A stretch of 64,000 nucleotides of DNA from Octopus vulgaris (GCA_951406725.2 OX597815.1:152520001-152584000); one strand, 5' to 3'; positions 14,991 through 55,862 are shown, numbered from the stretch's first letter. Notes: generated from the sequence alone by a model not told the origin. Translations and numbers: made by a program.

Positions 14991-15213
14991 GCCGGAAATG
15001 TGAATGAATACATGTTTATGTGTGTTTGTGTTTCTCTGCATGTATGTATGTTTAAAGTCCTAATGTTTTGTGTGTGTGTGTGTGTATGTGTGTGTGTGTA
15101 TGTGTGTGTGTGTGTGTGTGTGTGTGTGTACATGTTTATGTGTACGTGTATGTGGCTGAAGTTGCTGATATTTTGTATTTTCTTCTTTTACAGATTAATT
15201 TCCATCTGGAAAT

Positions 15214-15404
15214 ATGCTCAGTCAAATCATACCATTTAGGCTGACTTTTGTGTTGATACTGTATACGAGGTTTCTATTAGAGAGTCATGCTGTTTCAACC
15301 ATCTGCCAATCATGTAGTTGCGATGGATTACCAATGAGAGTAAATTGTCAAAATCGAGGACTGATTTCAGTCCCCCAAACGATTCCCCTAAATGTCATAT
15401 CTTT
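15214..15404 (+). CDS. Host gene coding exon 1: signal peptide + LRR N-terminal cap (exon starts at 15194 and includes 5'UTR)
   Basis: Acceptor ttcttttacag|15194. In-frame TAA 18 nt upstream of ATG 15214. Translates MLSQIIPFRLTFVLILYTRFLLESHAVSTICQSCSCDGLPMRVNCQNRGLISVPQTIPLNVIS (hydrophobic leader, CxxCxC..C, GLxSVP). Phase-2 donor |gtaagt at 15405. Confidence 0.9.
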
Positions 15405-15750
15405 GTAAGTAGCCAATTTTTACATATTTTCCACATCCAGTATTTTAAATCCTCATTGATTATGTTCTCAGCTGATTTCTTATGGCCTTGACCTAACAGC
15501 TACAATGTTATGATTGGAGTAAATTGGATCGATATGTAACATACCATGAAGTAGACTGTTTCTCAATTCCTTTCAACTTCTATTGAATCTATACCTTTAC
15601 AGTATTGCCAACAAATGTGGAATCAGACTAATATCTAAACTTTGACGATATTAGTCTGATCACATGAAAACTCTTTATGGCATATTCAGGGAAGCAAATA
15701 TATGGAAATTTTGGTATTACAAAATATGTTGCAGATATCGTAGGATTATA

Positions 15751-17043
15751 CGAGGGCCGTTCAATAAGTAATGCCCCTGACCCACTTCCCATAGTAGTAG
15801 AGCAACAAATCTTATCACAGTAATTAGTCTTTTTTCTACATAGGAACCACCCAGAGTTACGCATTTCTCCCATCGTTTGATGCAGCTCTGGAGACCGTTT
15901 TTTTAGAAGACCTCAGCTTGGTCCTCCAACCACGACGTGACTTCAGAAATCAAGGCTGCATCATCTTGGAAACGCTTTCCTTTCAAAAACAACTCCATGG
16001 ATGGGTAGAGGTGAAAATCAGAGGGTGCAAGGTCAGGAGAGTAGGGGGGATGGGGGAGGAGTTCATAGCCGTACGCCTGTGCTTCTTATCTGGCGACACA
16101 CGAGTTGTGGACCGGAGCGTTGTCCTGCAGGAGGAGAATGCCTTTGCTGATCTTGCCCCGCCTCTTGATTTTGATAGCTTCTCTTAATTTCCTCAAAAGT
16201 GAAGCATAATAGGCTCCTGTAATTGTGGTACCCTTTGCCAGGAAATCTGTCATCACTACTCCGTCCTGGTCCCAGAAGACTGTGAGCATGACCTTGCCAG
16301 CAAAGGGCTGCACCCTTGCCTTCTTTGGAGGAGGTGAATCACGCTGCTTCCACTGCATTGACTGGGCTTTGGTCTCTGGATTATAGTGATGGACCCAGCT
16401 TTCATCCTGTGTAATCAGTCTTTTGAAAAATTTTGACTCCTCTTCTTAGCACATCTCCAAATTCCTCCTCGAGCACTCGACGCGTTCTTGCTTCTGGAAA
16501 GGTGTGAGCAACCTGGGAATCCATCTGGCAGACACCTTTTGCATATTCAAATGGTCATGAATGATAGTTTCCACAGACCCGGTGCTAATCTTGACCTGAT
16601 GGGCTATTTGGCGAATTGTTATGCATCGATCTTCCAAAATGGCAGCCTCAACTTGACAGACAGATTCCTCATCAATGGCAGAAAGGAGGCGACCAGATCT
16701 GGGAGCTGTTTCCACAAAGTTCCGACCATGTTTGAATTCACGATGCCAGCGTTTTACAAGGTCATATGATGGGGCATCATCACCATAAGTTACTTTCATT
16801 TCATCAAAAGTCTCCCGTGGTGTGCGTCCTTTCAAATACAAAAACCGGATCACTGCTCGACACTCAACAGGCTCCATTTCACACTTGACTCAGTTCAAAC
16901 ACCTGTAAATAAGAAACCACAATTAGTTCGGAGCTGTAATTTGCCACTAAATCTATAAAAATATAGATAATTGTACATGCAAAATTTCAGCTAGATCAAA
17001 CAATTGCAAGTGGGTCAGGGGGGTTACTTATTGAACGTCCCTC
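15751..17043 (-). mobile_element. Near-complete mariner transposon (transposase pseudogene ~16877->15824)
   Basis: TIRs cgagggccgttcaataagtaa / ttacttattgaacgtccctc flanked by TA. WIPRLL, TQDESW, LQDNAP and YSPDLAPSDF motifs. Premature stop at 16446 plus a frameshift. Confidence 0.95.
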
Positions 17044-18351
17044 TATGATTTCAATTAGTTGAAGATGTTTACAGCTAGTGATATAATTCCAGTTGATCTA
17101 GTCACAAAATGGTATTTTTTTATTGAGTGTTTGTATTATTTTACATTAAAAATGATACTGTCAGACTGGTTAAACTTCAGATAATAACAAGATCCTCTTG
17201 AATTGCCAGATTCATAAATTTATAAAGGAAGGATGGCAGTCTTGGTGGGATAAGTTTCTTGAAATATATGATAAAATAAAATACATTAATTATCTAATAT
17301 ATCTTCAGCCAATCATAATATCTAATCTATTCCCAGGGATAATTTTGTATTAAATGGCAAACATTATTGTATTAATGACTTTAAGCTTTTGGTTTAAAGC
17401 AAATATTTGAATAATACAATGAAATAACTCAATTGACCAAACCCACTTCTCGACAAATTTGGGACATTTCTGATGAAATGAGAAATCCATATATAATACA
17501 AGACCAGGTTTGAATTATGACGTTAACTAAATCTCGTAAACCTAAGTCAATATTTTATTTAAGAGGTCTGGTATTTTCAGGGTTTAGTTAATAATTTAGG
17601 CAAAAATTGGTAGAATCTTCAGACAGTTAATGTAGCACGAAAGCTCGCAATATCTGTTCTGATGCTTGGCTCTCTGACTACAAATACCACAGAATTTAAC
17701 TTTACTTTTCAGTATTTAGGGGTCAGTAAATAAAATATCCATCTAGAGCAGTGGATTTGTAGATATGTAACAATGTTGGATTCCATGTGCTTTCAATATT
17801 TGTTAAAACTCTCTGCCTTCTGAGTTCAAATCCCACCTTAACCTACTTAAGTGACGAACTAAATGCCCCTCGGTTTAACATCACCTTATGACAATTTGGG
17901 CCTCTTTAGTAGAATCCACTTTGTTGTAAGCATTCGAGTCAGACCTCTAGTTTAAGAATCCCTCTCTATTTTTCCTACTAGACTTGGAGGTCCTCTAAAG
18001 GGTCATGGACAATGTCCTCCTGATTAAAAGAATATAAAAGGGAATCCTTTATGGCTGTCAGAATCCATAGATTAATAAATGTAACGTAAAGCTCTGTTCC
18101 CTATTTAAAAAAGAGCTGGACTTTATTCAAGAAAATACTTTGGATTTTTCATTAGGCATTTATGATAACCTAGCAAAGGAATTTTTTACAATCCTTGTCC
18201 TCTGTTCTGAAATTTTAGTTTCAAGAAATAGGCTTAGATTTTTTTAAAAAAATTTTATCTTGATTAAGTTCAGCTGCAATGTTTTAACAGTTTAGACAAC
18301 AGGAGAAATATATTTTTGAAAAATATTTATTTATATCATGTTGGTAGAATA

Positions 18352-54870: not shown

Positions 54871-55112
54871 CGTACATATCTCTATGAGATATTTAGAAAT
54901 TTAATATTTCTGATATATATATATATATATACTTTATAATTAAGGTTCAGCAAAGATTTGCTTCACCACATACCGAAGTTTAGAAATAGCAGTCAAAAAA
55001 TCTTAGCTATTCCTTCTACTTTAAAAGGGGCTCCCAGAAAAACTAAAGTACTTGAAAACAATCCACACAGGCAAAAGGGAAAAATAACGAAAATCAATCG
55101 ATATTAGGTTAC

Positions 55113-55196
55113 TCACGTACACGCGTTTCGTAATTAGATCGGCATAAAGAATAAATAATTATACCTTACCCAACCATTTTCGGCTCTTCAGCGTGG
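55113..55196 (-). ncRNA. Hammerhead-like motif with poorly paired stem II
   Basis: Minus strand: cacg-CTGAAGA-...-GAAAC-gcgt-GTA-cgtg; stems I and III pair. Confidence 0.45.
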
Positions 55197-55701
55197 GATT
55201 CCTCAAATATTAATGATTAAATATTAAATTTGAAGGCACTGGAAAATATCTCTTCACCTAACGGTATCAGAGAGATCATATTCAGTGCTAGTGCCGCCAA
55301 ATTCAAAATACGAATGAGAGTTCATCACCTTCCCCTGCCCATTAGCGTGTCGCAAAGTAAGATGCTACAGAGAGAAACTGTAGGAGTAGTTAAATCGATT
55401 GCATAGACCCTAGTGTTCAACTGGTCCTTTTTTTTTTAAGTCTCAAAAGAATGAAAAGGAAAGTTGACCGCAGCAGAATTTGAATTAAAAACATAAAGCC
55501 GGGCAAAATACTGCAAAGTATTTCGCCCGAGATGCTAATGATGCTATCAGCTCACCATTAGTGTTATATAACAATAAAACTTAGATTTCTGTTACTAAAA
55601 CAAGACCAGCTTATTTTAACCATCTAGGTAGGGTCGCCTATACTAAGAATCTTGCGAGTGTTGTTAAAACTAATTATGTTTATTTTTTAATCTTATTTCA
55701 G

Positions 55702-55862
55702 AATGCAATCAAATAAAGAAATATTTACAATATATTGTGCAGTACAAAACAAAATCAAAGATCAAGTTGAGCAGAATATTCGTGATATTCTGAATACATC
55801 GCAGACATTGCATAATTTGGGGCTTGATCAACATAACACGGAAATAATTGGTGAAAGAAGCA
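55702..55862 (+). CDS. Host gene coding exon 7: end of SEA-like domain; gene continues beyond the recognisable exons
   Basis: ttttttaatcttatttcag|, phase 2 in. MQSNKEIFTIYCAVQNKIKDQVEQNIRDILNTSQTLHNLGLDQHNTEIIGERS. Probable phase-1 donor gtgcgt at 55863; an alternative gtgaaa lies at 55851. Confidence 0.78.

What the first reader, a model, noticed from the sequence alone, without database searches (positions are those of the whole stretch)
15194..55862. Hidden 7-exon gene: LRR caps + Ly6/uPAR + SEA-like ectodomain (probable adhesion-type GPCR)
Seen: seven exons (928 coding nt over 40 kb) join with matching phases (2,1,0,1,0,2,1) and GT-AG sites into one stop-free 309-aa frame. Exons 2 and 3 are absent from the supplied ORF track and the rest appear only as disconnected pieces. 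Known: CCxxxxCN marks three-finger (Ly6/uPAR) folds, and SEA domains precede HRM/GAIN in several adhesion GPCRs. Inference: an LRR + three-finger + SEA combination is unlike vertebrate adhesion GPCRs and may be a lineage-specific expanded receptor family. The 7TM part is not visible in this window.
Basis: partly seen in the sequence, partly recalled or inferred. Interest (0 to 1): 0.72.

Follow-up and report, generated by a model that had tools for sequence, protein, structure and literature searches.

The report
Octopus receptor missing its repeat head
This is a real, spliced gene of a known octopus family of adhesion G-protein-coupled receptors, and this copy lacks the whole array of leucine-rich repeats that its sibling genes carry, so it likely makes a shortened surface receptor with altered binding and likely weak signalling.

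Summary
Exons 2-7 are already in an NCBI Octopus vulgaris model named adhesion GPCR G6-like. Downstream exons supply HRM-like, GAIN/GPS and seven-helix parts, so the GPCR reading is right. The three-finger and SEA-like folds are supported. The layout is not octopus-only: it occurs in snails, bivalves and an annelid; three-finger GPCRs and the octopus expansion are published (PMC13719153, PMC6408891), and this scan noted the family three times on other DNA. Contigs from two studies, in runs guessed to be RNA, join exon 1 straight to exon 2, so it is not an assembly error. Stachel and helices 5-7 are diverged; dN/dS against the paralog is near 1. New variant of a known kind; interest 0.33.

The parts
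1561..1570 (+). 3' end of a likely untranslated first exon (start not known)
   Evidence: 8 loose letters before exon 1 in X16 plus the shared AG match here, followed by GT; same motif upstream of paralog B; short match, tentative
4478..4509 (+). 3' end of an alternative untranslated first exon, next to a retroelement fragment
   Evidence: 30 loose letters before exon 1 in X18 (another species label) match here, followed by AG/GT
15194..15404 (+). Coding exon 1: ATG at 15214, likely signal peptide, LRR N-terminal cap
   Evidence: 62 of 64 residues as in P0002; Pfam LRRNT E 0.0002, under cut-off; covered by contigs in X16, X17, X20, X18
28143..29104 (.). Junction where about 43 kb of paralog B, holding all its LRR exons, has no counterpart; about 960 bp of repeat-derived DNA stands in its place
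   Evidence: collinear BLASTN blocks stop at B 32545 and resume at B 75684
29658..29815 (+). Exon 2: last LRR strand and LRR C-terminal cap
   Evidence: joined directly to exon 1 in X17 and X20
31179..31270 (+). Exon 3: first finger of the three-finger (LU) domain
32913..33096 (+). Exon 4: rest of the LU domain with CCxxxxCN; lacks one cysteine that is nearly invariant in the family
37407..37495 (+). Exon 5: SEA-like domain, first strand and helix
43870..43922 (+). Exon 6: SEA-like domain, middle
55702..55862 (+). Exon 7: SEA-like domain, end. The gene goes on outside the window (G000:C2:152584790-152666142): exons 8-14 HRM-like, GAIN, GPS; exons 15-19 seven helices; ten small tail exons; last exon with a cut-short Death-domain-like piece
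   Evidence: downstream exons; frame open over all 30 exons, 1,108 residues; tail exons predicted from DNA only

Best explanation
This gene is a spliced paralog of the octopus LRR-LU-SEA-HRM-GAIN-7TM adhesion GPCR family that lacks all its single-repeat LRR exons while keeping an open frame, and it likely encodes a self-cleaving surface receptor whose binding would rest on the three-finger and SEA-like domains and whose G-protein signalling is likely weak. Shown: exon structure, open frame, absence of the LRR block, the exon 1-2 junction in contigs, an intact HL/T cleavage motif. How the loss is tolerated (shown): LRR exons are 72 nt and sit in phase 2 on both sides, so any number, including all, can drop out in frame. 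Inferred: loss by deletion from an LRR-bearing ancestor, probably recent; protein made and cleaved; loss of the LRR ligand site; weak tethered-agonist signalling because the Stachel lacks the family's Met and linker and helices 3, 5, 6 and 7 have lost conserved residues; a role as decoy or modulator beside its full-length siblings.
For: Frame open over 19 core exons and over all 30 predicted exons. 0 LRR exons here against 3-25 in 14 of 14 other loci. Introns collinear with paralog B on both sides of a 43-kb gap. Exon 1-2 join in X17 and, by resolving a mixed consensus, in X20, two studies; in X18, another species label, an exon 1 with 2 differences joins LRR exon 1 instead. GPS Pfam E 4e-13 and best solved relative ADGRG6 (6v55) E 8e-20. 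Frame survival: if half of the roughly 146 differences from B arose on this copy at random, the chance of no stop is 0.04; aligned genomic blocks show 0.5 gap openings per 100 bases, yet no frameshift here. Motif erosion seen in the alignment.
Against: dN/dS against B is 1.13 (exons 1-7), 0.89 (8-14), 1.43 (15-19), none different from 1 (Fisher p 1.0, 0.81, 0.26), which fits relaxed constraint. An exon 1-3 join that shifts the frame (stop at codon 75) is present in X16 and X20, as many runs as the in-frame join. One LU cysteine is lost. Contig depths are low (6-14) and the runs are only guessed to be RNA. The open frame may reflect selection before the deletion. No protein, ligand or tissue data.
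Confidence: 0.55

Rival explanations
1. The copy is a young, still transcribed pseudogene: the LRR deletion disabled it and it has not yet had time to gather stops.
For: dN/dS near 1 in all three regions; frame-shifting exon-2 skip seen in 2 of 3 runs of organism A; lost LU cysteine, eroded helices, truncated Death-like tail; neighbourhood has partial duplicates that start within the HRM/GAIN exons.
Against: No stop or frameshift in 2.78 kb of core exons and AG/GT kept at all core junctions; the Stachel, helix-6 and helix-7 changes are shared with the O. bimaculoides relative P0003, so they predate the deletion.
Confidence: 0.3
2. The copy is a fully signalling receptor that has been re-specialised: LU domain as the new ligand site, and fast-changing helices 2-7 giving new G-protein coupling under positive selection.
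For: 7TM exons differ most from B (76 non-synonymous against 14 synonymous changes); PMC6408891 reports positive selection on branches of its group 3; ECL2 Cys-Trp and the helix-6 Trp are kept.
Against: dN/dS 1.43 is not significant; synonymous divergence is also raised in exons 17 and 19, so a different history of that segment (conversion or recombination) could explain it; helix 5 looks shortened.
Confidence: 0.12
3. The missing LRR block is an assembly collapse or a private allele of the sequenced animal.
For: The junction lies in a microsatellite and repeat-derived DNA; no DNA read was laid across it.
Against: Exon 1 identical to this copy is joined to exon 2 or exon 3, never to an LRR exon, in 3 of 3 runs of organism A from two studies; no N gaps in the 264 kb examined.
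Confidence: 0.03

Closest known systems
Octopus-expanded adhesion GPCRs, group 3 of Ritschard et al. 2019 (PMC6408891; seen: abstract, introduction, passages, supplement rows)
   Same: [quoted passage not shown]
   Different: The paper's InterPro table has no 'Ly6' entry; the passages seen name no LU or SEA domain and no LRR-less copy. It counts 21-22 sequences over the species studied; this genome gives 49-66 exon matches. I did not match accessions, so membership is inferred.
LU-domain GPCRs of molluscs, arthropods and starfish (PMC13719153, seen: passages and half of the results; PMC11595613, seen: passages)
   Same: An LU domain in the ectodomain of a 7TM receptor; starfish LyAr2 LU resembles Lynx2/LYPD1, which is also the best solved match here. 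The figure legend lists GPS and LRR among domains.
   Different: 'Octopus' does not occur in the main text of PMC13719153; its figures and supplements could not be seen, so the exact LRR-LU-SEA-GAIN layout may already be drawn there.
Vertebrate ADGRG6/GPR126
   Same: SEA, HRM, GAIN, 7TM order (recalled); best solved sequence relative of the GAIN region (6v55, E 8e-20) and a fold match of the SEA-like domain (Z 7.6, rmsd 3.5, 92 aligned).
   Different: About 25% identity; CUB and pentraxin domains in place of LRR and LU (names recalled; one search lists PF00431 and PF00354); orthology not shown, the tree leaves it open.
Paralog B (G000:C2, minus strand, exon 1 at 152238397) and O. sinensis LOC115224769 (P0002)
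   Same: Same exons, about 95% DNA identity in most exons.
   Different: 18 LRR exons by my scan in B, 20 LRR motifs in P0002, none here; helices 5-7 are 68% identical to P0002.

Membership tests
Adhesion GPCR | GAIN domain with GPS motif just before the first helix | tested here: met
   Pfam GPS E 4e-13 on P0001; 12 solved matches, all adhesion GPCRs, best ADGRG6
Adhesion GPCR | Seven helices of the secretin/adhesion type | tested here: met
   Seven hydrophobic segments in the model, aligned to 7tm_2-positive relatives; exon 19 alone scores only E 0.02, so the match is degenerate
Adhesion GPCR | HL/T autoproteolysis consensus | tested here: met
   Motif present in exon 14; cleavage itself not testable
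Adhesion GPCR | Canonical tethered agonist (Stachel) and G-protein coupling | tested here: inconclusive
   Phe and Leu kept, the Met seen in most relatives and about 8 linker residues absent, shared with P0003; activity untested
Ly6/uPAR (LU) three-finger domain | Conserved cysteine pattern ending in CCxxxxCN | tested here: met
   Family profile aligns its cysteines with LYPD1 and LYPD6 (E 0.046-0.099, weak); this copy has 11 of the family's 12
Ly6/uPAR (LU) three-finger domain | Three-finger fold | tested here: met
   9 of 10 Atlas structure rows are LU-family clusters, TM 0.66-0.75, all under the tool's naming bar; both sides are predicted models. My own model's LU half was barely tested; no Pfam LU hit on this copy itself
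SEA domain | Ferredoxin-like fold matching solved SEA domains | tested here: inconclusive
   Fold met (TMPRSS6 Z 8.7, MUC16-like Z 8.2, ADGRG6 Z 7.6), but unrelated ferredoxin-like proteins tie or rank higher (best Z 9.8); Pfam SEA in 1 of 14 members, E 2e-5, and in Haliotis P0125
Octopus group 3 expansion (PMC6408891) | Falls in an octopus-only clade of adhesion GPCRs | tested here: met
   15 Octopus rows including this gene form one clade, 100/100, in a 32-row tree; the paper's own sequences were not fetched
LRR-LU-SEA adhesion GPCR family layout | LRR array between the two caps | tested here: not met
   0 LRR exons by TBLASTN and profile scan; lost in this copy

The most novel reading that the evidence does not exclude
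Octopus runs a large, fast-turning repertoire of adhesion GPCRs whose binding head is a cassette of interchangeable one-repeat exons (0 to at least 25 copies), and this gene is the natural zero-repeat end point: a selected head-less receptor that tunes or blocks its siblings, or uses the Lynx2-like three-finger domain alone to bind a partner such as an acetylcholine-receptor-type channel in arm, sucker or skin.
Probability: 0.1. Interest if true: 0.7.

Novelty: new variant of a known kind. Interest (0 to 1): 0.33.

Why it matters
The family is a known octopus expansion, and the papers seen give it no ligand. A naturally expressed copy without its LRR head, beside a 95% identical sibling with 18 or more repeats, is a ready-made pair for asking what the LRR array does and what the three-finger domain does alone. 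It also shows that LRR number in this family changes by whole-exon gain and loss. The NCBI model of this gene (P0001) looks wrong at both ends: it starts in intron 1 and leaves the frame after the GPS, so it misses the signal peptide and most of the 7TM.

Tried and rejected
Splice-site scans without a guide gave many false exons; homology fixed exons 5 and 6. Pfam finds no LU or SEA on this copy. Foldseek gave no match at E 0.001. The Atlas feature search showed only one weak unnamed hit, 0.75. No run listed is on record as RNA; X15-X20 are guesses. One search was swamped by repeats and its tables were cut; X15 showed only an unspliced contig over exon 1 and X19 showed no exon 1 piece among those listed. 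No DNA reads were laid across the junction (both lay calls used). A hydrophobic frame right after the GPS exon was considered as helix 1 and dropped when the true exon was found 2.4 kb further on. The 22 of 66 LU-exon matches with a stop are not counted as pseudogenes because the query ran 50 nt into the intron. Alternative splicing as the cause of the missing LRRs is rejected: they are absent from the DNA. The tree left out P0094 (no GPS found), P0002, P0001 and P0018; it cannot place the family against ADGRG6. The fused-cap N-terminus was not folded, so whether it folds is open. Paper searches found no description of an LRR-less copy; the library lacks most subscription papers. PMC9795677 (passages) added nothing. 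Look-ups of earlier notes by sequence and by place were empty.

Full report
Setting. The window lies at G000:C2:152520001-152584000 in a 2.8-Gb genome. Exon 4 is 100% identical to part of an NCBI protein named adhesion GPCR G6-like of Octopus vulgaris, on a contig of the same length as C2, so I take the genome to be that species.

Observation. Aligning P0001 and the O. sinensis protein P0002 to the window gave seven exons in order. Contigs of public runs support the early joins: after the last base of exon 1, X17 continues with the start of exon 2, X16 with the start of exon 3, X20 gives a mixed consensus that is reproduced letter for letter by those two forms together, and X18 (another species label) continues with the first LRR exon known from paralog B. 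X18 also has one contig with exons 2 and 4 set apart by the length of exon 3. These runs are only guessed to be RNA, but the joins fall on exon ends. The exon 1-3 form shifts the frame and stops at codon 75.

The rest of the gene. In 150 kb fetched downstream lie twelve more core exons: an HRM-like segment, GAIN, a GPS with HL/T, and seven helices. Ten small tail exons and a last exon follow; the frame is open over all 30 exons, 1,108 residues. The tail resembles the Death domain of the O. bimaculoides relative P0003 but is interrupted and cut short. All 12 solved matches of P0001 are adhesion GPCRs, ADGRG6 first. P0001 itself starts in intron 1 and leaves the frame after the GPS.

Domains in the window. 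A profile of 14 family members aligns its cysteines with LYPD1 and LYPD6, weakly by E-value, and 9 of 10 Atlas structure rows for this stretch are LU clusters. The predicted model (mean pLDDT 69) gives exons 5-7 a ferredoxin-like fold that matches SEA-bearing entries (TMPRSS6, a MUC16 homologue, ADGRG6) at Z 7.6-8.7, tied with unrelated proteins of that fold. LU is well supported, SEA likely.

Family. The genome gives 66 matches (74 candidates) to the LU exon, 49 (58) to exon 1 and 54 (61) to the GPS exon; 46 of the 66 lie on C29-C31. These are lower bounds and not gene counts. The LU-SEA profile also finds LRR-GPS-7TM proteins in Haliotis, Nucella, Physella, Biomphalaria, Plakobranchus, Dreissena, Ylistrum, Saccostrea and the annelid Lamellibrachia (10 of the 68 hits were looked up). 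In a GAIN-7TM tree the 15 Octopus rows form one clade (100/100) with this gene beside P0003. So the layout is old and the expansion is octopod.

What is special here. P0002 has 20 LRR motifs between the caps. Paralog B, about 300 kb upstream on the other strand, has 18 LRR exons by my scan, and 13 further loci, picked mostly for a short distance from exon 1 to the LU exon, have 3, 3, 4, 5, 6, 6, 7, 7, 9, 11, 12, 18 and 25; the window gene has 0. Nearly all are 72-nt exons in phase 2 on both sides. Intron 1 follows B up to window 28143 and resumes at 29104, skipping about 43 kb of B that holds every LRR exon; about 960 bp of repeat-derived DNA fills the junction. Because X18 joins an exon 1 close to this copy to an LRR exon, the loss is probably recent (inference; gene conversion could blur it).

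How it likely works. By established knowledge of adhesion GPCRs (recalled), the product would be cleaved at the GPS and signal through the new N-terminus. Here the cleavage motif is intact, but the Met found in most relatives and about eight linker residues are missing and the helix-6 and helix-7 glycines are replaced (all shared with P0003); the helix-3 Glu of most relatives is replaced too, and loop 2 and the end of helix 5 look eroded. I therefore favour a head-less, weakly signalling receptor acting as decoy or modulator (0.55), then a young pseudogene (0.3), then a re-specialised receptor (0.12), then artefact (0.03). For function: no stop where 73 random changes would leave the frame open 4 times in 100, and no frameshift although aligned blocks show 0.5 gap openings per 100 bases. 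Against: dN/dS near 1, the frame-shifting skip, a lost LU cysteine.

Known work. PMC6408891 (abstract, introduction, passages, supplement rows) describes the octopus adhesion GPCR expansion with LRR and Death domains, expressed in axial nerve cord, suckers and skin. PMC13719153 (passages, half of the results) and PMC11595613 (passages) report LU-domain GPCRs in molluscs, arthropods and starfish; the figures and supplements of the former could not be seen and may show this layout. Four searches found no account of an LRR-less copy. Three earlier notes of this scan describe the family on other DNA; they are not evidence.

Verdict. Real gene, correct structure, known family; the new point is the expressed zero-repeat copy. 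New variant of a known kind, interest 0.33.

Noticed in passing
G000:C2:152331000-152486300: Two partial copies of the same gene between paralog B and the window gene, back to back: one on minus from a GAIN exon down, one on plus from the HRM exon down to an apparently complete Death-like last exon; no LU-exon match there. A further GPS exon at C2:151895075.
   Followed up: partly
G000:C2:152620201-152660492, and paralog B tail: The cytoplasmic tail is built from tandemly copied 36-nt exons in 3-4-kb units; 13 near-identical copies seen in B, two alternating types here.
   Followed up: partly
L071-L129 (paralog loci): LRR exons vary strongly at the positions flanking the first conserved Leu, but other exposed positions are as variable in my entropy table; no selection test run.
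   Followed up: partly
window 15903-16889 (-): Mariner-type transposase with two stops, inserted in intron 1 relative to paralog B.
   Followed up: partly
window 7341-10456 (-): LINE with endonuclease and reverse transcriptase in two frames; a PHD-like finger follows the RT.
   Followed up: partly
window 46868-51666 (-): Second LINE with endonuclease and RT pieces in intron 6, partly matched at the corresponding place in paralog B.
   Followed up: partly
window 5120-6683 (-) and 53255-54487 (+): RT fragments that look Penelope-like (label recalled); the first has an RVT_1 hit, the piece tested of the second has none.
   Followed up: no
window 19763-20346: 23-bp minisatellite, 25 copies, in a part of intron 1 absent from paralog B.
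   Followed up: no
P0097, P0098: Some family proteins match the LU-SEA profile in three stretches, suggesting repeated LU-SEA units.
   Followed up: no
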